64,000 bases of DNA from Escherichia coli. Its GTDB lineage: Bacteria > Pseudomonadota > Gammaproteobacteria > Enterobacterales > Enterobacteriaceae. Positions 1 through 53,491 of this stretch are shown here, one piece after another. The stretch is from assembly GCF_003334815.1 (NCBI RefSeq), contig NZ_QOWO01000006.1; one strand, written 5' to 3'. The notes under the pieces are model-generated. The model worked only from the letters and a program-made list of their open reading frames with translations, ran no database searches and had not been told where the DNA came from. Every line of letters begins with the position of its first letter. Positions within the stretch are counted from its first letter, which is position 1. A program made the translations under genes and the position numbers.

Positions 1-2486
1 CTTCCGTACAGCGCGACAACCCGGAGATGGAGCGTCGCTGCCAGGAAGTGATCGACCGTTGCTGGCAGCTTGGTGATGCCAACCCAATCCTGTTTATCCA
101 CGACGTTGGCGCTGGCGGTCTTTCTAACGCCATGCCGGAACTGGTGAGCGACGGCGGGCGCGGCGGTAAATTTGAACTGCGCGAGATTCTAAGCGACGAA
201 CCGGGCATGAGCCCGCTGGAAATCTGGTGTAACGAATCCCAGGAACGCTACGTGCTGGCGGTTGCTGCCGATCAATTACCGCTGTTTGACGAACTGTGTA
301 AGCGTGAGCGCGCACCCTACGCGGTGATTGGTGAAGCGACCGAAGAACTGCATCTTTCTCTGCACGATCGTCATTTTGATAATCAGCCGATCGATCTGCC
401 GCTGGACGTCCTGCTTGGTAAAACGCCGAAGATGACCCGCGATGTACAAACGCTGAAAGCGAAAGGCGACGCGCTGGCCCGTGAAGGGATCACCATTGCA
501 GACGCGGTGAAACGTGTGCTGCATCTGCCGACTGTGGCGGAAAAAACCTTCCTGGTGACCATTGGCGACCGCAGCGTAACCGGCATGGTAGCGCGCGATC
601 AGATGGTGGGGCCGTGGCAGGTGCCGGTCGCTAACTGCGCGGTCACTACCGCCAGCCTCGACAGCTACTACGGTGAAGCGATGGCGATTGGCGAGCGTGC
701 GCCGGTTGCGCTGCTGGATTTCGCCGCCTCTGCCCGTCTGGCGGTCGGTGAAGCGTTAACCAACATCGCCGCAACACAAATTGGCGATATCAAACGCATC
801 AAACTTTCCGCCAACTGGATGGCGGCGGCAGGCCACCCTGGTGAAGATGCGGGCCTGTATGAAGCCGTTAAAGCCGTGGGCGAAGAGCTTTGTCCGGCGC
901 TGGGCCTGACGATCCCGGTGGGTAAAGACTCCATGTCGATGAAAACCCGCTGGCAGGAAGGTAACGAAGAGCGCGAAATGACGTCGCCGCTGTCGCTGGT
1001 GATTTCTGCATTTGCCCGCGTGGAAGATGTACGTCACACCATCACGCCGCAGCTTTCTACCGAAGATAACGCACTGCTGCTGATTGATTTGGGCAAAGGC
1101 AATAACGCGCTGGGCGCAACGGCGCTGGCGCAGGTTTATCGTCAGCTTGGCGACAAACCGGCAGATGTACGCGATGTCGCGCAACTGAAAGGCTTCTATG
1201 ACGCGATTCAGGCGCTGGTTGCACAGCGTAAGCTGCTGGCGTATCACGACCGCTCTGATGGCGGCCTGCTGGTAACGCTGGCGGAAATGGCCTTTGCTGG
1301 TCATTGTGGCATTGACGCGGATATCGCCACTCTGGGTGACGATCGCCTGGCGGCGTTGTTTAACGAAGAACTGGGTGCGGTGATTCAGGTTCGTGCCGCT
1401 GACCGTGAAGCGGTCGAGTCCGTACTGGCACAGCATGGGCTTGCTGATTGTGTCCATTATGTAGGGCAGGCGGTTTCCGGTGACCGTTTTGTGATTACCG
1501 CCAACGGGCAGACTGTATTCAGCGAAAGCCGCACCACGTTGCGTGTCTGGTGGGCAGAAACTACCTGGCAGATGCAGCGCCTGCGTGACAACCCGGAGTG
1601 TGCCGATCAGGAGCATCAGGCGAAATCTAACGACGCCGATCCGGGCCTGAATGTAAAACTGTCGTTCGATATCAACGAAGATGTGGCAGCACCGTATATT
1701 GCCACTGGCGCACGTCCGAAAGTTGCCGTACTGCGTGAGCAGGGCGTGAACTCGCATGTTGAAATGGCGGCAGCTTTCCACCGTGCAGGCTTTGATGCTA
1801 TCGACGTGCATATGAGTGACCTGCTGACCGGACGCACGGGCCTGGAAGATTTCCACGCCCTGGTCGCGTGCGGTGGTTTCTCCTACGGTGATGTGCTGGG
1901 TGCCGGTGAAGGTTGGGCGAAGTCAATCCTGTTCAATGACCGTGTACGCGATGAGTTTGCAACCTTCTTCCACCGTCCGCAAACGCTGGCGCTGGGGGTA
2001 TGTAACGGTTGCCAGATGATGTCTAATCTGCGTGAACTGATCCCAGGTAGTGAGTTGTGGCCACGTTTTGTGCGCAATACCTCCGATCGCTTTGAAGCGC
2101 GTTTCAGCCTGGTTGAAGTAACCCAAAGCCCGTCTCTGCTGTTGCAGGGGATGGTGGGCTCGCAAATGCCGATTGCTGTCTCTCATGGTGAAGGGCGCGT
2201 GGAAGTGCGTGATGCGGCGCATCTGGCGGCACTGGAAAGCAAAGGGCTGGTGGCACTGCGCTATGTCGATAACTTCGGCAAAGTCACTGAAACCTACCCG
2301 GCTAACCCGAACGGTTCACCGAACGGTATTACGGCAGTCACGACTGAAAGTGGTCGAGTCACCATTATGATGCCGCACCCGGAACGTGTTTTCCGTACTG
2401 TCAGCAACTCCTGGCATCCGGAAAACTGGGGCGAGGATGGCCCATGGATGCGCATTTTCCGCAATGCGCGTAAGCAGTTGGGGTAA
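1..2486 (+). CDS. purL: phosphoribosylformylglycinamidine synthase (FGAM synthase), 3' portion; gene begins upstream of window
   Basis: Reading frame open from window edge to TAA at 2484-2486 (track ORF 27..2486); translation ends with a class-I glutamine amidotransferase domain (GVCNGCQ, HGEG, MPHPER motifs) typical of large PurL. Confidence 0.95.
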
Positions 2487-2544
2487 GTCGTCAGCCCATT
2501 GGTTTTGCAGCCCGGATGCGGCATTAAGCACCAACCACTATCAT

Positions 2545-2572
2545 AAGCTCCCAACTCCGGGAGCTTTTTTGT
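2545..2572 (+). terminator. Rho-independent terminator downstream of purL
   Basis: GC stem AAGCTCCC / GGGAGCTT with 6-nt loop, followed by T-tract (2565-2570). Confidence 0.7.
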
Positions 2573-2685
2573 GTCTGTAAATCACGACAATGGGTGGTTT
2601 GCCGTGTCGCTTTCTGGCGACACTTAACTCATTGATTTTAATATTATCTAATAAGTTTATCTTAAGTTGTCTCTTTTTAGCGACA
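2572..2685. promoter_or_regulatory. Three TGTC-N10-GACA sites (2572-2589, 2605-2622, 2668-2685), consistent with GlrR-type sigma-54 activator binding sites upstream of glmY
   Basis: Three exact TGTC-(10 nt)-GACA palindromic half-site pairs seen directly; position about 90-230 bp upstream of a sigma-54 promoter with AT-rich (IHF-like) DNA in between. Confidence 0.65.
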
Positions 2686-2774
2686 CAGTGGCTGATTTAC
2701 ATTCAAACAGCGGAGGAGACATAAACCCCTCAAAGCAACGTATAATCAGTACGTTACCAAACTATTTTCTTTAT

Positions 2775-2791
2775 TGGCACAGTTACTGCAT
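2775..2791 (+). promoter_or_regulatory. sigma-54 (-24/-12) promoter of glmY
   Basis: TGGCAC-N5-CTGCAT matches the TGGCAC-N5-TTGCA consensus; overlapping CATAAT -10-like hexamer at 2789-2794. Confidence 0.75.
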
Positions 2792-2801
2792 AATAGTAAC
2801 C

Positions 2802-2985
2802 AGTGGCTCATTCACCGACTTATGTCAGCCCCTTCGGGACGTGCTACATAAAATACGAATGACGCACAACAAGGTGCCTGCCGTCCAACTTCTGATATCA
2901 GCGTAGCTATATCAACCATCGGGCGAAACGTCGAGTTAGGCACCGCCTTATTCCATAACAAAGCCGGGTAATTCCCGGCTTTGTT
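2802..2985 (+). ncRNA. glmY: GlmY small RNA (about 184 nt), controls glmS via GlmZ/RapZ
   Basis: Start about 12 nt downstream of the sigma-54 -12 element; sequence AGTGGCTCATTCACCGACTTATGTCAGCCCCTTCGGG... recognised from memory as GlmY; ends in terminator AGCCGGG-TAATT-CCCGGCT + TTGTTGT (2962-2987); no ORF. Confidence 0.8.
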
Positions 2986-3043
2986 GTATCTGAACTTCCC
3001 CTCGGTTAGCATCAGGCTATTCGCGTCTGACGAGAGTAACACC

Positions 3044-4471
3044 TTGAAACGCTGGCCCGTTTTTCCCCGCTCATTACGACAACTGGTAATGCTGGCATTT
3101 TTGCTGATTCTGCTGCCCCTGTTGGTGCTGGCATGGCAAGCCTGGCAAAGCCTGAATGCGCTTAGCGATCAGGCGGCGCTGGTTAACCGCACTACGCTTA
3201 TTGATGCCCGGCGCAGTGAAGCGATGACCAACGCGGCGCTGGAGATGGAGCGTAGTTACCGTCAGTATTGCGTGCTGGACGACCCAACCCTGGCGAAGGT
3301 TTATCAAAGCCAGCGCAAGCGTTACAGCGAAATGCTCGATGCCCACGCAGGCGTGCTGCCGGACGATAAACTCTACCAGGCATTACGTCAGGATTTGCAC
3401 AATCTGGCTCAACTTCAGTGTAACAACAGCGGTCCCGATGCTGCCGCCGCCGCACGTCTTGAAGCCTTTGCCAGTGCCAATACCGAAATGGTACAGGCCA
3501 CGCGCACAGTGGTGTTCTCTCGTGGGCAGCAGCTTCAGCGTGAAATCGCCGAACGTGGGCAATATTTTGGTTGGCAATCGCTGGTGCTATTTCTGGTGAG
3601 TCTGGTAATGGTACTGCTTTTCACGCGGATGATTATCGGGCCGGTGAAAAATATCGAGCGCATGATCAACCGTCTGGGGGAAGGGCGTTCTCTGGGCAAT
3701 AGCGTCTCGTTCAGTGGACCGAGCGAGTTACGCTCGGTTGGGCAACGTATTCTTTGGTTAAGTGAGCGCCTGTCATGGCTGGAATCCCAACGCCATCAAT
3801 TTTTAAGACATTTATCTCATGAATTAAAAACGCCACTGGCGAGTATGCGCGAGGGCACTGAATTACTGGCTGACCAGGTTGTCGGGCCGCTTACGCCAGA
3901 GCAAAAAGAGGTGGTGAGCATTCTTGATAGCAGCAGCCGCAATTTGCAAAAACTGATCGAACAACTGCTTGATTACAACCGTAAACAGGCGGACAGTGCG
4001 GTGGAACTGGAGAATGTTGAGTTAGCACCGCTGGTGGAGACAGTGGTTTCTGCTCATAGCCTGCCCGCACGGGCTAAAATGATGCATACCGACGTCGATC
4101 TCAAAGCAACAGCTTGCCTGGCGGAGCCAATGCTGCTGATGAGCGTACTGGATAATCTTTACTCCAATGCGGTGCACTACGGGGCTGAATCCGGTAACAT
4201 TTGCCTTCGCAGCAGTTTACATGGTGCGCGGGTTTATATTGATGTCATCAATACAGGCACGCCCATTCCGCAAGAGGAACGCGCCATGATCTTCGAACCC
4301 TTTTTTCAGGGAAGCCACCAGCGAAAAGGGGCGGTGAAGGGCAGCGGTCTGGGATTAAGCATTGCCAGGGATTGTATTCGCCGTATGCAAGGGGAACTGT
4401 ATCTGGTCGACGAGAGCGGGCAAGACGTTTGTTTCCGCATTGAATTACCGTCGTCGAAAAACACGAAATAA
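3044..4471 (+). CDS. glrK: sensor histidine kinase GlrK (YfhK/QseE), 475 aa, probable TTG start
   Basis: Track ORF 2981..4471; its ATG at 2981 lies inside the glmY terminator, so TTG at 3044 (protein MKRWPVFPRS...) preferred; two TM segments, HAMP, H-box (HELKTPL) and HATPase motifs. Confidence 0.9.
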   Translation: MKRWPVFPRSLRQLVMLAFLLILLPLLVLAWQAWQSLNALSDQAALVNRTTLIDARRSEAMTNAALEMERSYRQYCVLDDPTLAKVYQSQRKRYSEMLDAHAGVLPDDKLYQALRQDLHNLAQLQCNNSGPDAAAAARLEAFASANTEMVQATRTVVFSRGQQLQREIAERGQYFGWQSLVLFLVSLVMVLLFTRMIIGPVKNIERMINRLGEGRSLGNSVSFSGPSELRSVGQRILWLSERLSWLESQRHQFLRHLSHELKTPLASMREGTELLADQVVGPLTPEQKEVVSILDSSSRNLQKLIEQLLDYNRKQADSAVELENVELAPLVETVVSAHSLPARAKMMHTDVDLKATACLAEPMLLMSVLDNLYSNAVHYGAESGNICLRSSLHGARVYIDVINTGTPIPQEERAMIFEPFFQGSHQRKGAVKGSGLGLSIARDCIRRMQGELYLVDESGQDVCFRIELPSSKNTK

Positions 4472-4635
4472 TGCTAACAGCCTATCCTATCAGGCTATTT
4501 TATTTGTCAGTTCGGCCCCGGGCAGTGCTCGAAATCTTCACGTACGATATGTACGCTCCGGTTTCTCCGCGCTGTCCATGTCCAGACTGTCTGCAACAAT
4601 TACGCCCACTGGGATAGGCTTTAAGTCTGGTGAAT

Positions 4636-5349
4636 ATGCGACACATTTTTCAACGATTATTGCCCCGACGGCTGTGGCTGGCAGGGCTGCCATGTCTGGC
4701 ATTGCTGGGTTGCGTGCAGAATCACAATAAGCCAGCCATTGATACGCCAGCAGAAGAAAAAATTCCGGTTTATCAACTGGCTGACTATCTTTCTACTGAA
4801 TGTAGCGACATCTGGGCGCTGCAAGGTAAATCAACCGAAACCAATCCGCTTTACTGGCTGCGGGCGATGGATTGTGCTGATCGTTTAATGCCTGCGCAGT
4901 CGCGTCAGCAAGCTCGCCAATATGACGACGGCAGCTGGCAAAATACCTTTAAACAAGGGATTTTGCTCGCCGACGCCAAAATTACGCCGTATGAGCGCCG
5001 CCAGCTGGTCGCGCGTATTGAAGCGTTAAGTACCGAGATCCCGGCACAGGTTCGCCCACTGTATCAACTCTGGCGCGATGGTCAGGCGCTGCAACTGCAA
5101 CTGGCGGAAGAGCGCCAACGTTACAGTAAACTCCAGCAGTCCAGCGACAGCGAGCTGGATACATTGCGCCAGCAACATCACGTTCTACAGCAGCAACTGG
5201 AACTCACCACCCGCAAGCTGGAAAACCTGACCGATATTGAACGCCAGCTCTCGACCCGCAAACCGGCTGGAAATTTCTCGCCGGATACGCCGCACGAGAG
5301 TGAAAAGCCCGCGCCATCCACCCATGAGGTCACTCCTGATGAGCCATAA
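4636..5349 (+). CDS. qseG: outer-membrane lipoprotein QseG (YfhG), 237 aa
   Basis: Track ORF 4630..5349; start at third codon gives MRHIFQRLL... with lipobox LLGC; Q/L-rich coiled-coil C-terminus; sits between kinase and response regulator. Confidence 0.88.
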   Translation: MRHIFQRLLPRRLWLAGLPCLALLGCVQNHNKPAIDTPAEEKIPVYQLADYLSTECSDIWALQGKSTETNPLYWLRAMDCADRLMPAQSRQQARQYDDGSWQNTFKQGILLADAKITPYERRQLVARIEALSTEIPAQVRPLYQLWRDGQALQLQLAEERQRYSKLQQSSDSELDTLRQQHHVLQQQLELTTRKLENLTDIERQLSTRKPAGNFSPDTPHESEKPAPSTHEVTPDEP

Positions 5350-6673
5350 ACCTGCGCATTTATTATTGGTCGATGACGATCCGGGATTGCTGAAACTGCT
5401 TGGCCTGCGCCTGACCAGCGAAGGCTACAGTGTGGTCACGGCGGAAAGTGGCGCTGAAGGATTACGGGTACTGAATCGCGAAAAAGTAGATTTAGTCATC
5501 AGCGACCTGCGGATGGATGAAATGGACGGTATGCAGCTGTTTGCTGAAATCCAGAAAGTGCAGCCGGGAATGCCGGTAATTATTCTTACCGCGCATGGTT
5601 CTATTCCCGATGCCGTTGCTGCAACACAGCAGGGCGTTTTTAGTTTCCTCACCAAGCCTGTCGACAAAGACGCGCTATATCAGGCAATTGACGATGCGCT
5701 GGAGCAATCCGCGCCAGCCACCGATGAACGCTGGCGCGAGGCAATTGTCACCCGCAGCCCGCTGATGCTGCGTTTGCTGGAACAGGCGCGGCTGGTGGCG
5801 CAATCAGACGTCAGCGTTTTGATTAACGGTCAGAGCGGCACCGGGAAAGAGATTTTCGCCCAGGCTATCCACAACGCCAGCCCGCGCAACAGCAAACCAT
5901 TTATTGCTATTAACTGTGGCGCATTGCCCGAGCAATTGCTGGAGTCGGAGCTGTTTGGTCATGCGCGTGGCGCGTTTACTGGCGCTGTCAGCAATCGCGA
6001 AGGTTTATTCCAGGCGGCGGAAGGCGGAACGCTATTTCTCGATGAAATTGGCGATATGCCTGCGCCGTTACAGGTCAAACTGCTGCGCGTGTTGCAGGAG
6101 CGTAAAGTGCGCCCGCTGGGCAGTAACCGCGATATTGATATCAATGTGCGGATTATTTCTGCCACTCACCGTGATCTGCCAAAAGCGATGGCGCGCGGGG
6201 AATTCCGCGAAGATCTCTATTACCGCCTCAACGTTGTCAGCCTGAAAATTCCGGCACTGGCGGAGCGCACAGAAGACATTCCGCTACTGGCAAATCACCT
6301 GTTGCGCCAGGCGGCAGAGCGACATAAACCGTTTGTCCGCGCGTTCTCTACCGATGCGATGAAACGCCTGATGACCGCGAGCTGGCCGGGTAATGTGCGC
6401 CAGTTGGTCAACGTGATTGAACAGTGCGTGGCGCTGACCTCATCTCCGGTGATTAGTGATGCGCTGGTGGAGCAGGCGCTGGAGGGTGAAAATACGGCGC
6501 TGCCAACCTTTGTTGAGGCACGTAATCAGTTTGAACTCAACTATTTGCGTAAGCTGCTGCAAATCACCAAAGGCAACGTCACCCACGCGGCGAGAATGGC
6601 GGGGCGCAACCGGACAGAATTTTATAAACTGCTTTCCCGACACGAGCTGGATGCAAACGATTTCAAGGAATGA
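5339..6673 (+). CDS. glrR: sigma-54-dependent response regulator GlrR (YfhA/QseF), 444 aa
   Basis: Track ORF 5237..6673; start [15 protein letters not shown] overlaps qseG stop by 11 nt; receiver domain, AAA+ sigma-54 activator domain (GESGTGKE, GAFTGA motifs), C-terminal HTH. Confidence 0.93.
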
Positions 6674-6697
6674 ATTGGCGTTATGTGTTACGTTTAG

Positions 6698-7072
<375 letters not shown>

Positions 7073-7084
7073 ACCGCGTCAAGG

Positions 7085-7110
7085 GTTGCCGGATGTTTCC
7101 ATCCGGCAAC
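7085..7110. terminator. hairpin shared by convergent glnB and hmp (candidate bidirectional terminator)
   Basis: 11-bp perfect stem GTTGCCGGATG / CATCCGGCAAC, loop TTTC, located between glnB stop (7072) and hmp stop (7117); no strong T-tract. Confidence 0.5.
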
Positions 7111-7116
7111 ATCAAA

Positions 7117-8307
7117 TTACAGCACCTTATGCGGGCCAAAGCATTCGTAATGAATGTTTTCCTGCTTCACGCCCAGATCCACTAACTGTTTCGCGGTAAA
7201 CTGCATGAAGCCAACCGGGCCGCAGAGATAGAACTGCATTGTCGGATCGCTGAACGCACCTTCCAGTTTGCTCAAATCCATCAGACCTTCGCTATCAAAC
7301 TGACCTTTAGCGCGATCGGCTTCGCTCGGCTGACGATACCAGGTGTGCGCGGTAAAGCGCGGCAGTGACTGCCCCAGTTCCTTAACTTCATCGGCAAAGG
7401 CGTGAACATCGCCATTTTCTGCCGCATGGAACCAGTTCACTTGTGCTGTGTGGCCTGCTTTTGCCAGCGTGTCGAGCATTGCCAGCATTGGCGTTTGACC
7501 AACACCGGCAGAGATTAACGTCACTGGTGTGTCATCTGCGACAGCCATAAAGAAATCACCTGCCGGAGCGACCAGTTTCACGACATCGCCAACATTGGCG
7601 TGATTGTGCAACCAGTTGGATACCTGCCCACCCTCTTCGCGTTTCACCGCAATACGATAGCCTTTGCCATCCGGTTTGCGAGTCAAAGAGTACTGACGAA
7701 TTTCCTGATGTGGGAAACCTTCCGGCTTCAGCCAGACGCCGAGATATTGCCCCGGACGGTATTCTGCCACTGCGCCACCGTCGACCGGCTCCAGTTCGAA
7801 GCTGGTGATAAGCGCGCTGCGCGGTGTTTTAGCCACAATGCGGAAATCGCGAGTACCTTCCCAACCACCGGCTTTGCTGGCGTTTTCGTTATAGATTTCC
7901 GCCTCGCGATTGATAAATACATTAGCCAGTACACCATAGGCTTTACCCCACGCGTCCAGCACTTCCTGCCCCGGGCTGAACATTTCGTCCAGCGTTGCCA
8001 ACAGGTGTTCACCGACGATGTTGTACTGTTCCGGTTTGATCTGGAAGCTGGTGTGCTTCTGCGCGATTTTTTCTACCGCTGGCAGCAGCGCAGGCAGGTT
8101 TTCAATATTACTGGCGTAGGCGGCAATAGCGTTAAACAGGGCTTCACGTTGATCGCCATTACGCTGGTTACTCATGTTAAAAATTTCTTTGAGTTCTGGG
8201 TTATGAGTAAACATACGGTCGTAGAAATGGGCGGTTAACTTTGGCCCCGTTTCCACCAGTAAAGGGATGGTGGCTTTTACTGTAGCGATGGTTTGAGCGT
8301 CAAGCAT
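7117..8307 (-). CDS. hmp: flavohemoglobin / nitric oxide dioxygenase, 396 aa
   Basis: Track ORF 7117..8328; start at [17 protein letters not shown] (globin domain) followed by FAD/NAD-binding reductase domain. Confidence 0.95.
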
Positions 8308-31575: not shown

Positions 31576-31760
<185 letters not shown>

Positions 31761-32424: not shown

Positions 32425-32535
32425 TAAAAAGAATTCAGAATCAGGCCGGAGTGCTAAATACTCCGTAAACACGGTCGTACATCCAGCCGGTAGCCTGATT
32501 CCTTGCATTGAGTGATGTACGGAGTTTATAGAGCA

Positions 32536-39133: not shown

Positions 39134-39910
39134 ATGTCCGAAACAAAAAACGAACTTGAAGACCTGCTGGAAAAAGCAGCAACTGAACCGGCGCACCGCC
39201 CGGCCTTTTTCCGTACTCTACTGGAATCCACCGTCTGGGTGCCTGGTACGGCGGCGCAGGGCGAGGCTGTGGTTGAAGATAGCGCGCTTGATTTACAGCA
39301 CTGGGAAAAAGAAGACGGCACCAGCGTCATTCCTTTTTTCACCTCGTTAGAAGCACTTCAACAGGCGGTTGAAGACGAACAGGCATTTGTCGTAATGCCC
39401 GTTCGCACGCTGTTTGAGATGACACTTGGCGAAACGCTCTTCCTTAATGCCAAACTGCCAACCGGTAAAGAATTTATGCCGCGTGAAATCAGTTTGTTGA
39501 TTGGTGAAGAGGGAAATCCGCTGAGCAGCCAGGAAATCCTGGAAGGCGGTGAATCGCTGATATTATCGGAAGTCGCAGAGCCGCCAGCACAAATGATTGA
39601 TTCACTCACCACCTTATTTAAAACCATTAAGCCGGTGAAGCGTGCTTTTATTTGTTCAATTAAAGAGAACGAAGAGGCACAGCCTAATTTACTTATTGGC
39701 ATTGAAGCCGATGGTGATATCGAAGAAATTATTCAGGCGACGGGAAGTGTAGCGACCGATACATTACCTGGCGATGAACCAATCGATATTTGTCAGGTGA
39801 AAAAAGGGGAAAAAGGAATTAGCCACTTTATTACCGAACATATTGCGCCATTCTATGAACGTCGCTGGGGTGGTTTTTTGCGTGACTTTAAACAGAATCG
39901 GATAATCTAA
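39134..39910 (+). CDS. sseB: SseB (enhancer of serine sensitivity) protein, about 258 aa
   Basis: Track ORF 39125..39910; start MSETKNELEDLLEKAA (alternative start 39125). Confidence 0.88.
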   Translation: MSETKNELEDLLEKAATEPAHRPAFFRTLLESTVWVPGTAAQGEAVVEDSALDLQHWEKEDGTSVIPFFTSLEALQQAVEDEQAFVVMPVRTLFEMTLGETLFLNAKLPTGKEFMPREISLLIGEEGNPLSSQEILEGGESLILSEVAEPPAQMIDSLTTLFKTIKPVKRAFICSIKENEEAQPNLLIGIEADGDIEEIIQATGSVATDTLPGDEPIDICQVKKGEKGISHFITEHIAPFYERRWGGFLRDFKQNRII

Positions 39911-39911
39911 A

Positions 39912-40215
39912 ATATGCCGCCCAAAGGGCGGCATTCGGGCTTACTTGCTGCTCTGAAGGTTGTTAACCACCAGTAAATTGTCGCCGGAGAGACTCCGGTT
40001 ATTATTTACCTCGGTTAACAGCGCACCAGAAACAATAAGTACGATACAAAAGCACCGTATCTTCATTGTGCGGTCCATGCGAAGACCGCATCACGACAGC
40101 ACCACTGGCGATATTGCCGCGATAGCAAGCGCTGTGAAACACCTGCATTTACGGCCACGGAACATCCTTTCCTAAAGCCAGCGCCCGTTTGCGAGACGGC
40201 GGAAAGGGCCGCAGT
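39912..40215 (-). ncRNA. ryfA: candidate RyfA-like transcript (about 300 nt), possibly a small-protein mRNA
   Basis: Minus-strand TATTAT -10-like hexamer at 40218-40223; about 300 nt downstream the minus-strand terminator hairpin at 39913-39937; contains a 24-codon ORF (40091-40165) with AGGAAAGG RBS; boundaries and strand are inferred, not proven. Confidence 0.35.
39913..39937. terminator. hairpin at sseB 3' end; T-tract is on the minus-strand side (better terminator for a minus-strand transcript)
   Basis: TGCCGCCC-AAA-GGGCGGCA; flanked by AAAATA on the + side so the minus-strand reading gives hairpin + UAUUUU. Confidence 0.55.
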
Positions 40216-40388
40216 GGATAATACACTAACAGAACAATAATAACTCTCTTTTGCTTGACAAAAAGAGAGTTACTGGCGAGTATTGTCTCCGCTGAGACGC
40301 GCTTGCATTACTACGGTAATACAACCTGCTGGAAAGGCCGCGAACCGGACCAGCAACAAAAAACCGCCTGATTTTGGCGGTTTTTTGT
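40198..40388 (+). repeat. paralogous unit 1: leader + TTGACA-centred palindrome + conserved block + intrinsic terminator (candidate ~100-nt sRNA gene on + strand)
   Basis: About 80% identical to 40520-40711; TTGACA at 40255-40260 inside perfect 11-bp inverted repeat (40242-40271); terminator AAAAAACCGCC-TGATTTT-GGCGGTTTTTT at 40357-40390. Confidence 0.6.
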
Positions 40389-40519
40389 TTTTTAAAGGAA
40401 AGTGAATTTACATGTTTAAGTAATATCTTTTACCGGTTAGAATTTTTAATTTTGAGCAGGATTTGTTTATATTTGTCTGAATTCGGACTAATAAGCCAGG
40501 TTATTTTATTACCGAACAC

Positions 40520-40711
40520 GGCGGAAAGGGCCGGTGTCGATAATACGCTAAATAAACAATAATTACTCTCTTTTGCTTGACAAAAAGAGAGTTACTGGTG
40601 AGTATTGTTTTGCTGTGAAGCACCTGCGTTGCTCATGTAACACAAGTCAACCTGCTGGAAAGGCCGCGAACCAGACTAGCAATAAAAAACCGCCAAATTC
40701 GGCGGTTTTTT
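40520..40711 (+). repeat. paralogous unit 2: same architecture as unit 1; its terminator also serves convergent sseA
   Basis: TTGACA at 40577-40582 inside 10-bp inverted repeat (40565-40592); conserved CTGCTGGAAAGGCCGCGAACC block; terminator AAAAAACCGCC-AAATTC-GGCGGTTTTTT at 40683-40713, 15 bp from sseA stop. Confidence 0.6.
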
Positions 40712-52262: not shown

Positions 52263-53381
52263 ATGCATAACCAGGCTCCAATTCAACGTAGAAAATCAAC
52301 ACGTATTTACGTTGGGAATGTGCCGATTGGCGATGGTGCTCCCATCGCCGTACAGTCCATGACCAATACGCGTACGACAGACGTCGAAGCAACGGTCAAT
52401 CAAATCAAGGCGCTGGAACGCGTTGGCGCTGATATCGTCCGTGTATCCGTACCGACGATGGACGCGGCAGAAGCGTTCAAACTCATCAAACAGCAGGTTA
52501 ACGTGCCGCTGGTGGCTGACATCCACTTCGACTATCGCATTGCGCTGAAAGTAGCGGAATACGGCGTCGATTGTCTGCGTATTAACCCTGGCAATATCGG
52601 TAATGAAGAGCGTATTCGCATGGTGGTTGACTGTGCGCGCGATAAAAACATTCCGATCCGTATTGGCGTTAACGCCGGATCGCTGGAAAAAGATCTGCAA
52701 GAAAAGTATGGCGAACCGACGCCGCAGGCGTTGCTGGAATCTGCCATGCGTCATGTTGATCATCTCGATCGCCTGAACTTCGATCAGTTCAAAGTCAGCG
52801 TGAAAGCGTCTGACGTCTTCCTCGCTGTTGAGTCTTATCGTTTGCTGGCAAAACAGATCGATCAGCCGTTGCATCTGGGGATCACCGAAGCCGGTGGTGC
52901 GCGCAGCGGGGCAGTAAAATCCGCCATTGGTTTAGGTCTGCTGCTGTCTGAAGGCATCGGCGACACGCTGCGCGTATCGCTGGCGGCCGATCCGGTCGAA
53001 GAGATCAAAGTCGGTTTCGATATTTTGAAATCGCTGCGTATCCGTTCGCGAGGGATCAACTTCATCGCCTGCCCGACCTGTTCGCGTCAGGAATTTGATG
53101 TTATCGGTACGGTTAACGCGCTGGAGCAACGCCTGGAAGATATCATCACTCCGATGGACGTTTCGATTATCGGCTGCGTGGTGAATGGCCCAGGTGAGGC
53201 GCTGGTTTCTACACTCGGCGTCACCGGCGGCAACAAGAAAAGCGGCCTCTATGAAGATGGCGTGCGCAAAGACCGTCTGGACAACAACGATATGATCGAC
53301 CAGCTGGAAGCACGCATTCGTGCGAAAGCCAGTCAGCTGGACGAAGCGCGTCGAATTGACGTTCAGCAGGTTGAAAAATAA
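52263..53381 (+). CDS. ispG: 4-hydroxy-3-methylbut-2-en-1-yl diphosphate synthase (IspG/GcpE), 372 aa
   Basis: C-terminal [4Fe-4S] Cys ligands (CPTCSR...GCVVNGPGE). Confidence 0.96.
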
Positions 53382-53491
53382 TAACGTGATGGGAAGCGCC
53401 TCGCTTCCCGTGTATGATTGAACCCGCATGGCTCCCGAAACATTGAGGGAAGCGTTGAGGGTTCATTTTTATATTCAGAAAGAGAATAAAC

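What the first reader, a model, noticed from the sequence alone, without database searches (positions are those of the whole stretch)
2572..3046. glmY locus: three TGTC-N10-GACA activator sites, sigma-54 promoter, sRNA and a non-ATG start for the downstream kinase gene
The purL-glrK spacer is not empty. It carries three exact TGTC-N10-GACA palindromes (2572-2589, 2605-2622, 2668-2685), an AT-rich spacer, a textbook -24/-12 element TGGCAC-N5-CTGCAT (2775-2791) and a structured, terminator-ended RNA (2802-2985) that I recognise as GlmY. The first ATG of the automatically called glrK ORF (2981) lies inside the GlmY terminator, so glrK most likely starts at TTG 3044, a non-canonical start that may reflect low translation of the kinase. 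The sRNA is thus transcribed from directly upstream of the two-component system that activates it (glrK-qseG-glrR). This is a known system, reported here because every element is legible in the raw sequence.
Basis: partly seen in the sequence, partly recalled or inferred. Interest (0 to 1): 0.35.

Follow-up and report, generated by a model that had tools for sequence, protein, structure and literature searches.

The report
E. coli glmY sRNA locus, textbook
This is the well-studied E. coli K-12 glmY small-RNA gene with its activator sites and promoter. It sits just upstream of the kinase operon that switches it on, and that kinase gene does start at a weak TTG codon, as the reference genome already says.

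Summary
The finding is real, and it is already known. Window 1-7800 is identical to E. coli K-12 MG1655.
- Three exact TGTC-N10-GACA sites at 2572, 2605 and 2668. These are the only three in 64 kb.
- A -24/-12 sigma-54 box at 2775-2791.
- GlmY at 2802-2985 (Rfam RF00128, 146 bits; annotated b4441, 184 nt).
- glrK/qseE starting at TTG 3044, as annotated in both RefSeq records (475 aa).

One stated fact is wrong. The codon at 2981 is TTG, not ATG, and there is no ATG in any frame from 2950 to 3088.

- the overlapping sigma-70 promoter (-10 CATAAT, 2789-2794);
- two IHF sites (2625-2637 and 2744-2756);
- the separate qseEGF promoter, whose start site is 25 bp upstream of the TTG, so 2981 is not on the mRNA;
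- processing of GlmY to 148 nt.

I compared 24 other Enterobacterales loci with a readable glrK 5' end. The start is TTG in 20 and GTG in 3. Codons 2-16 vary mostly at third positions. Met16 is Thr in three Citrobacter loci. The non-ATG start is therefore conserved. Its link to low kinase abundance is plausible but untested. Interest is low.

The parts
1..2486 (+). 3' part of purL (the gene runs off the left edge of the window); stop codon TAA at 2484-2486
   Evidence: RefSeq annotation of the identical MG1655 sequence; ORF list
2545..2572 (+). purL intrinsic terminator: 8-bp stem with a 6-nt loop at 2545-2566, then a T-run that abuts ABS1
   Evidence: Terminator scan; sequence
2572..2589 (.). 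ABS1, a GlrR/QseF binding site: TGTCTGTAAATCACGACA, at -230 to -213. Published as dispensable for promoter activity.
   Evidence: PMC3045617
2605..2622 (.). ABS2, a GlrR/QseF binding site: TGTCGCTTTCTGGCGACA, at -197 to -180. Published as essential.
   Evidence: PMC3045617
2625..2637 (-). Distal IHF site (site 1): AATCAATGAGTTA on the minus strand, matching WATCARNNNNTTR. I equate it with the published site by position only.
   Evidence: An exact match at the same position (-174 to -183) occurs in 13 of 25 other loci. PMC3045617 reports that site 1 is essential for the sigma-54 promoter.
2668..2685 (.). ABS3, a GlrR/QseF binding site: TGTCTCTTTTTAGCGACA, at -134 to -117. Published as essential.
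   Evidence: PMC3045617
2744..2756 (+). Proximal IHF consensus site (site 2): AATCAGTACGTTA, at -58 to -46
   Evidence: PMC3045617 describes two IHF-like sites flanking ABS3
2775..2791 (+). Sigma-54 promoter: TGGCAC (-24 element), N5, CTGCAT (-12 element). GG is at 2776-2777 and GC at 2788-2789.
   Evidence: found at -27 or -26 in 25 of 25 other loci; PMC3045617
2789..2794 (+). -10 hexamer CATAAT of the overlapping sigma-70 glmY promoter, which starts at the same nucleotide.
   Evidence: Sequence; PMC3045617. CTGCATAAT or TTGCATAAT is kept in Escherichia, Citrobacter, Enterobacter and Pluralibacter, and lost in Kosakonia, Mangrovibacter, Serratia and Yersinia.
2802..2985 (+). glmY primary transcript, 184 nt. 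The active processed form of about 148 nt corresponds to 2802-2949.
   Evidence: Rfam RF00128, 146 bits; NC_000913.3 b4441; fold; PMC4152352 for the 184-to-148 nt processing
2957..2985 (+). GlmY intrinsic terminator: 12-bp hairpin with GC core 2963-2979, then the T-rich tail TTTGTTGT. The TTG codons at 2981 and 2984 lie in this tail.
   Evidence: sequence; conserved across genera
2984..3019 (+). qseEGF (glrK) sigma-70 promoter. My inferred hexamers are -35 TTGTAT (2984-2989), a 17-bp spacer, and -10 TAGCAT (3007-3012). The published transcription start is 25 bp upstream of the start codon, about 3019.
   Evidence: The start site and 'immediately downstream of glmY' come from PMC6075780. The hexamers are my inference. 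TTGTAT and GTTAGCAT are largely conserved across 13 aligned loci. The consensus scan did not call this promoter; it matches 7 of 12 positions.
3032..3036 (+). Weak Shine-Dalgarno-like GAGAG, 7 nt upstream of the TTG
   Evidence: Sequence. GAGAGTAA or TGAGAT is found at the same distance in most loci. This is an inference.
3044..4471 (+). glrK (qseE, yfhK), a sensor histidine kinase of 475 aa with a TTG start codon
   Evidence: RefSeq annotations; conserved TTG or GTG
4636..5349 (+). qseG (yfhG), an outer-membrane lipoprotein of 237 aa
5339..6673 (+). glrR (qseF, yfhA), a sigma-54-dependent response regulator of 444 aa. It overlaps qseG by 11 nt.

Best explanation
The region is the E. coli K-12 purL-glmY-glrK(qseE)-qseG-glrR(qseF) locus.

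How it works, from the literature: phosphorylated GlrR/QseF binds the three TGTC-N10-GACA sites 117-230 bp upstream of glmY. IHF bends the AT-rich DNA in between. GlrR then activates sigma-54 RNA polymerase sitting on the -24/-12 box at 2775-2791. A weak sigma-70 promoter (-10 CATAAT) overlaps this box and starts at the same nucleotide, 2802. The 184-nt GlmY ends at an intrinsic terminator (2957-2985) and is trimmed to about 148 nt. The trimmed RNA acts as a decoy for the RNase adaptor RapZ. That protects GlmZ and so raises GlmS synthesis.

The kinase operon is not read through from glmY. It has its own weak sigma-70 promoter, wedged between the GlmY terminator tail and the gene, with a start site near 3019. 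Translation of glrK begins at TTG 3044 behind a weak GAGAG Shine-Dalgarno.

Shown here:
- identity with the reference;
- coordinates of all motifs;
- the Rfam match;
- conservation of the sites, the promoter and the non-ATG start.

Taken from papers:
- binding and activation by GlrR;
- the IHF requirement;
- the dual promoter;
- the qseE transcription start;
- the lack of read-through;
- the RapZ decoy mechanism.

Inferred: the exact qseE -35 and -10 hexamers, and the idea that the weak start codon helps keep the kinase scarce.
For: - Window 1-7800 has no mismatch to MG1655, and 2400-3300 is 100% identical.
- Annotation maps glmY to 2802-2985 and glrK to 3044-4471.
- Rfam GlmY hit at 146 bits against a gathering score of 33.
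- The three ABS are the only TGTC-N10-GACA matches in 64 kb.
- Two IHF consensus sites flank ABS3.
- Of 25 other Enterobacterales glmY loci, 22 keep all three ABS within one mismatch at conserved distances. The other three keep two, and one of those has too little upstream DNA to show ABS1. All 25 have a sigma-54 box at -27 or -26.
- Start codon in the 24 other loci with a readable glrK 5' end: TTG in 20, GTG in 3, and an ATG one codon upstream in 1. Several have an in-frame stop 3-11 codons upstream with no other start-like codon.
- Codons 2-16 differ at codon positions 1, 2 and 3 by 63, 27 and 148 letters, which shows coding constraint from codon 2 onward.
- Met16 is Thr in three Citrobacter loci.
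- Literature: PMC3045617 (ABS, IHF, overlapping promoters), PMC4152352 (184 to 148 nt, RapZ decoy), PMC6075780 (qseEGF promoter with its start 25 bp upstream of the start codon, no read-through, QseE undetectable in a proteome).
Against: Nothing contradicts the identification. Caveats:
- The sigma-54 motif alone is not above chance in the window.
- The simple consensus scan called neither the GlmY terminator nor any sigma-70 promoter here, because of its thresholds.
- Four species (Serratia, Yersinia, Enterobacter sp. R1, Klebsiella sp. BIGb0407) have an in-frame ATG three codons upstream of the TTG, which could be their start.
- No protein N-terminus or initiation-site profiling data were examined.
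It lacks Salmonella and true Klebsiella pneumoniae.
Confidence: 0.97

Rival explanations
1. glrK translation really starts at the first in-frame ATG, 3089 (Met16). On this view the annotated TTG is an annotation convention and not the true start.
For: ATG is the strongest initiation codon, and 3089 is the only ATG in the neighbourhood. No N-terminal protein evidence was examined here.
Against: - Codons 2-15 (KRWPVFPRSLRQLV) are conserved as protein, with mostly third-position changes: 63, 27 and 148 differences at codon positions 1, 2 and 3.
- Codon 16 is ACA or ACG (Thr) in three Citrobacter loci, CTG or CTC in Pantoea, Serratia, Yersinia and Rahnella, and ATT or ATC in Mangrovibacter and Acerihabitans.
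- A start at Met16 would remove the basic N-terminal segment that precedes the first transmembrane helix.
- No Shine-Dalgarno-like sequence precedes 3089.
Confidence: 0.03
2. glrK starts at the head of the mechanical ORF (TTG 2981 or 2984) and is translated from glmY read-through transcripts.
For: The ORF is open from 2981. In Proteus mirabilis glmY-qseEGF is reported as one operon (abstract of PMC8745638).
Against: - Both codons lie in the T-tail of the GlmY terminator.
- The published qseEGF start site is 25 bp upstream of the start codon, which is downstream of 2981, and read-through 'does virtually not occur' (PMC6075780).
- In other genera the frame is closed by stops only 3-17 codons upstream of the conserved TTG or GTG.
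- Both RefSeq annotations use 3044.
Confidence: 0.01
3. The three palindromes and the -24/-12 box are chance matches with no function.
For: The -24/-12 pattern with one mismatch is not enriched in the window: 2 found, 3.5 expected.
Against: - The three palindromes are the only ones in 64 kb and sit within 114 bp; the rough chance estimate is about 6e-7.
- Positions and half-sites are conserved across more than 12 genera while the N10 spacers vary.
- Published binding and mutation experiments exist (PMC3045617).
Confidence: 0

Closest known systems
E. coli K-12 glmY (b4441; formerly sroF/tke1) with its GlrR/QseF- and sigma-54-dependent promoter (Reichenbach et al. 2009, cited from memory; Goepel et al. 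2011, PMC3045617)
   Same: Everything. The sequence is identical to MG1655. [quoted passage not shown]
   Different: Nothing. This is the type example itself.
glmZ promoters of Yersinia, Salmonella and other Enterobacteriaceae (three ABS, two IHF sites and a sigma-54 promoter; PMC3045617)
   Same: The same activator, site consensus and promoter architecture drive a homologous sRNA.
   Different: It is a different locus. In E. coli itself glmZ has lost this architecture and uses a plain sigma-70 promoter.
Other E. coli genes with a TTG start codon (general knowledge, not tested here: TTG is a rare and weak initiator)
   Same: glrK uses TTG behind a weak Shine-Dalgarno, and its product is very scarce (PMC6075780).
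   Different: No experiment links the glrK TTG to expression level. Conservation of TTG or GTG across genera is shown here only by comparison.

Membership tests
GlmY sRNA (Rfam RF00128, clan CL00011) | Scores above the family gathering threshold against the covariance model, over its full length | tested here: met
   146 bits against a gathering score of 33; model positions 1-163 of 163; window 2802-2949 on the + strand
GlmY sRNA (Rfam RF00128, clan CL00011) | Conserved gene order: between purL and the glrK/qseE-qseG-glrR/qseF operon, on the same strand | tested here: met
   Annotation of the identical reference. glrK follows glmY in the 24 other loci that could be read that far.
GlmY sRNA (Rfam RF00128, clan CL00011) | Ends at an intrinsic terminator; the primary transcript is about 184 nt and is processed to about 148 nt | tested here: met
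   Terminator hairpin at 2957-2985; annotated length 184 nt. Processing itself is taken from the literature only (PMC4152352).
GlmY sRNA (Rfam RF00128, clan CL00011) | Acts as a decoy that sequesters RapZ and so protects GlmZ | not testable with these tools
   Published for this exact sequence (PMC4152352, PMC7073468)
GlrR/QseF-activated sigma-54 promoter | GG-N10-GC (-24/-12) element at the right distance from the RNA 5' end | tested here: met
   TGGCAC-N5-CTGCAT at 2775-2791, which is -27 to -11; conserved in 25 of 25 other loci
GlrR/QseF-activated sigma-54 promoter | Multiple TGTC-N10-GACA activator sites more than 100 bp upstream | tested here: met
   Three exact sites at -230, -197 and -134. 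All three are conserved within one mismatch in 22 of 25 other loci, and the other three keep two.
GlrR/QseF-activated sigma-54 promoter | IHF site or sites between the activator sites and the promoter | tested here: met
   WATCARNNNNTTR matches at 2625-2637 (-) and 2744-2756 (+). The match is to a consensus only; binding is published (PMC3045617).
GlrR/QseF-activated sigma-54 promoter | Transcription depends on rpoN, glrR and ihf | not testable with these tools
   Published (PMC3045617)
Protein-coding gene with a non-ATG (TTG) start | The start codon is supported by annotation, an upstream frame closure or transcription start, and coding conservation beginning right after it | tested here: met
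   start site 25 bp upstream (PMC6075780)
Protein-coding gene with a non-ATG (TTG) start | Direct evidence for the N-terminus or the initiation site | not tested
   No proteomic or ribosome-profiling data are available through these tools

The most novel reading that the evidence does not exclude
The weak start codon of glrK/qseE (TTG, or GTG in Pantoea) is kept across at least a dozen enterobacterial genera. It comes with a weak Shine-Dalgarno and a weak promoter whose -35 box sits in the GlmY terminator tail. The reading is that this combination is under selection to hold the kinase at a few molecules per cell, well below QseG and QseF, and that this ratio matters for signalling. I found no paper that states or tests this for qseE, after a single literature search.
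Probability: 0.4. Interest if true: 0.2.

Novelty: already known. Interest (0 to 1): 0.08.

Why it matters
It matters little as a discovery, because the locus is the type example of GlmY transcriptional control and has been fully characterised. The check is useful in three ways:
- It gives comparative support for the annotated TTG start, which is conserved and could be tested as a way of keeping the sensor kinase scarce.

Tried and rejected
- **Loose pattern in the genome-contig scan.** The pattern GCTCATTCAC-N30-58-CGAATGA was too loose. Only 25 true glmY loci were recovered, picked by blastn, ABS sites and the sigma-54 box. The sample is therefore incomplete: it has no Salmonella, and the 'Klebsiella pneumoniae' MAG hit L021 is not glmY.
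- **Consensus promoter and terminator scan.** It found only the purL terminator. It missed the GlmY terminator, probably because the T-tail pairs into the extended stem, leaving too few free T's. It also missed both weak sigma-70 promoters. I did not treat this as evidence against them.
- **Literature search for 'qseE' plus 'TTG start codon'.** It returned only a generic methods sentence, so no paper discussing the glrK start codon was found.
- **Promoter occlusion as feedback.** I considered that heavy glmY transcription might occlude the qseE promoter that overlaps its terminator, giving negative feedback. I rejected this as unlikely, because published fusions carrying the whole glmY locus showed no effect of qseF or qseG deletion on qseE'-lacZ (PMC6075780).
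- **Overlapping mechanical ORFs.** ORFs 2667-2906 (+) and 2812-3042 (-) overlap glmY and its promoter. I did not pursue them. They lie over a conserved non-coding RNA and its promoter.

Full report
**Observation.** I read window 2300-3300 directly. A pattern search shows they are the only three TGTC-N10-GACA matches on either strand of the 64 kb window. Shuffled sequence gives 0.74 on average, and 7 of 100 shuffles reach three somewhere in the window. All three real matches fall within 114 bp, and I estimate the chance of that at roughly 6e-7.

TGGCAC-N5-CTGCAT lies at 2775-2791. It departs from the TGGCAC-N5-TTGCW consensus at one base. On its own the motif is not above chance: 2 matches with at most one mismatch, against 3.5 expected. 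Its weight comes from position and conservation. The spacer 2623-2774 is 68% A+T, against 47% for the window.

**Identity.** Rfam finds GlmY (RF00128) at 2802-2949 on the + strand. The score is 146 bits against a gathering score of 33, and the match covers the whole model. The 901-base query 2400-3300 is 100% identical to many E. coli genomes, including K-12 MG1655, and is present in all 5426 complete E. coli genomes. Window 1-7800 has no mismatch to MG1655.

In NC_000913.3, glmY (b4441) is a 184-nt ncRNA at 2691157-2691340 on the minus strand. glrK (b2556) starts at 2691098 and purL ends at 2691656. These map onto the window as glmY 2802-2985, glrK start 3044 and purL stop 2486. An independent PGAP annotation of MG1655 gives qseE at window 3044-4471, qseG at 4636-5349, glrR at 5339-6673 and glnB at 6734-7072.

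The 184-nt RNA folds at -64.2 kcal/mol (z = -4.8 against shuffles). It ends in a 12-bp hairpin at 2957-2985 whose T-rich tail is TTTGTTGT.

**The one error.** Position 2981 is TTG, and so is 2984. There is no ATG in any frame between 2950 and 3088. The first in-frame ATG is at 3089, codon 16. The codon was misread.

- An overlapping sigma-70 promoter with -10 hexamer CATAAT (2789-2794). It shares the start nucleotide with the sigma-54 promoter (PMC3045617).
- Two IHF sites flanking ABS3. I find exact WATCARNNNNTTR matches at 2625-2637 (-) and 2744-2756 (+). The distal one is reported as essential for the sigma-54 promoter (PMC3045617).
- GlmY is processed from 184 nt to a 148-nt active form, which acts as a decoy for RapZ (PMC4152352). 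That length equals the Rfam match, 2802-2949.
[quoted passage not shown] Read-through from glmY 'does virtually not occur'. QseE is so weakly expressed that a global proteome study did not detect it, against 11 QseG and 36 QseF molecules per cell (PMC6075780).

A start site 25 bp upstream of 3044 is about 3019. The codons at 2981 and 2984 are therefore not on the mRNA. From the sequence I infer -35 TTGTAT (2984-2989, within the terminator tail), a 17-bp spacer and -10 TAGCAT (3007-3012). Both hexamers are largely conserved from Escherichia to Kosakonia. The hexamer assignment is my inference.

**Comparative test.** One scan of the species-representative genome collection with a GlmY 5' pattern returned 120 loci. 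Most were chance hits. Blastn with GlmY, together with the presence of ABS and sigma-54 motifs, identified 25 true loci. They come from Escherichia albertii, Citrobacter, Enterobacter, Pluralibacter, Superficieibacter, Kosakonia, Mangrovibacter, Pantoea, Serratia, Yersinia, Rahnella, Acerihabitans and others.
- In 22 of the 25, all three ABS are found within one mismatch at about -230, -197 and -134, shifted by 6-20 bp in some genera. The N10 spacers vary.
- The other three keep two ABS. One of them, E. cloacae, has too little upstream DNA to show ABS1.
- The sigma-54 box is at -27 or -26 in all 25.

This reproduces the conclusions of PMC3045617.

**The glrK start codon.** Twenty-four of these loci extend far enough to read the glrK 5' end. 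The codon aligned with 3044 is TTG in 20 and GTG in the 3 Pantoea loci. Mangrovibacter has an ATG one codon upstream instead.
- In several genomes an in-frame stop lies only 3-11 codons upstream with no other start-like codon. These are Pantoea sp. IMH, P. stewartii, Enterobacter sp. Bisph1, an Enterobacter MAG and Kosakonia.
- Over codons 2-16 the non-consensus letters by codon position 1, 2 and 3 are 63, 27 and 148. That is the signature of a translated sequence starting immediately after the TTG.
- Codon 16 is not conserved as Met. It is Thr in three Citrobacter loci and Leu or Ile elsewhere. This rules out 3089 as a general start.
- Four species (Serratia, Yersinia, Enterobacter sp. R1 and Klebsiella sp. 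BIGb0407) also have an in-frame ATG three codons upstream. It follows directly after the GAG of the Shine-Dalgarno-like motif, so the spacing is poor. I cannot exclude that it is used in those species.

**Mechanism.** Shown here: the identity, the coordinates, the conservation and the coding signature. Taken from the literature: GlrR~P binds the ABS, IHF bends the AT-rich spacer, and sigma-54 holoenzyme at -24/-12 is activated. A weak sigma-70 promoter gives basal expression from the same start. GlmY terminates at 2985, is trimmed to 148 nt and titrates RapZ, which spares GlmZ and raises GlmS. The kinase operon is transcribed separately and weakly, and is translated from TTG. Inferred: that the weak codon contributes to the scarcity of the kinase. 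This is consistent with the published low abundance, but it is untested.

**Verdict.** The system is already known in full; this window contains the type example. The only increment is the cross-genus conservation of the non-ATG start. That is a minor point which supports the existing annotation. Interest is low.

Noticed in passing
window 2510-2525 (between the purL stop and the purL terminator): K-12 lacks an 18-bp segment (AGGCATTCACGCCGCATC or CGGCATTCACGCCGCATC) that other E. coli strains carry after GCCCGGATG. With it, those strains have a REP-like palindrome (GCCCGGATG...GCATCCGGC). K-12 appears to hold a deleted remnant of a REP element.
   Followed up: partly
L018 9640-10260 (Escherichia albertii) against window 2487-3100: From about -30 of glmY through the first codons of glrK, E. 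albertii is nearly identical to E. coli. Upstream of -30 the two are strongly diverged. ABS1 and ABS2 each have one mismatch, and ABS3 is AGTC-N10-GACG. The E. albertii ABS2 spacer looks more like those of the Citrobacter loci. This may mean the control region is a mosaic or was replaced.
   Followed up: partly
L124 876-1232 (E. coli SC476, a water isolate): qseE is annotated as a frameshifted pseudogene in this E. coli genome.
   Followed up: no
window 2984-2989: The inferred -35 box (TTGTAT) of the qseEGF promoter lies within the T-rich tail of the GlmY terminator and is conserved across genera. The end of the sRNA gene and the start of the kinase promoter therefore share the same bases.
   Followed up: partly
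L026 (Serratia grimesii) and L092 (Yersinia artesiana): The gap between glmY and glrK is about 250-300 nt longer than in E. coli: glrK starts at +488 and +542 from the glmY 5' end, against +243. An in-frame ATG lies three codons upstream of the conserved TTG. I did not examine what fills the extra spacer.
   Followed up: no
whole window, e.g. 39487-39499 and 39590-39602: The IHF consensus WATCARNNNNTTR matches 11 times in the window, against 3.5 expected, and no shuffle out of 100 reached 11. Two of the matches lie just upstream of the ryfA/IS128 sRNA region.
   Followed up: no
window 31637-31708, 32425-32534, 39909-40212, 40344-40552, 53381-53472: Other Rfam matches above their gathering scores: naRNA4 (+), the iscRS stability element (+), ryfA (-), IS128 (-) and sroE (+). 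All are known K-12 RNA elements.
   Followed up: no
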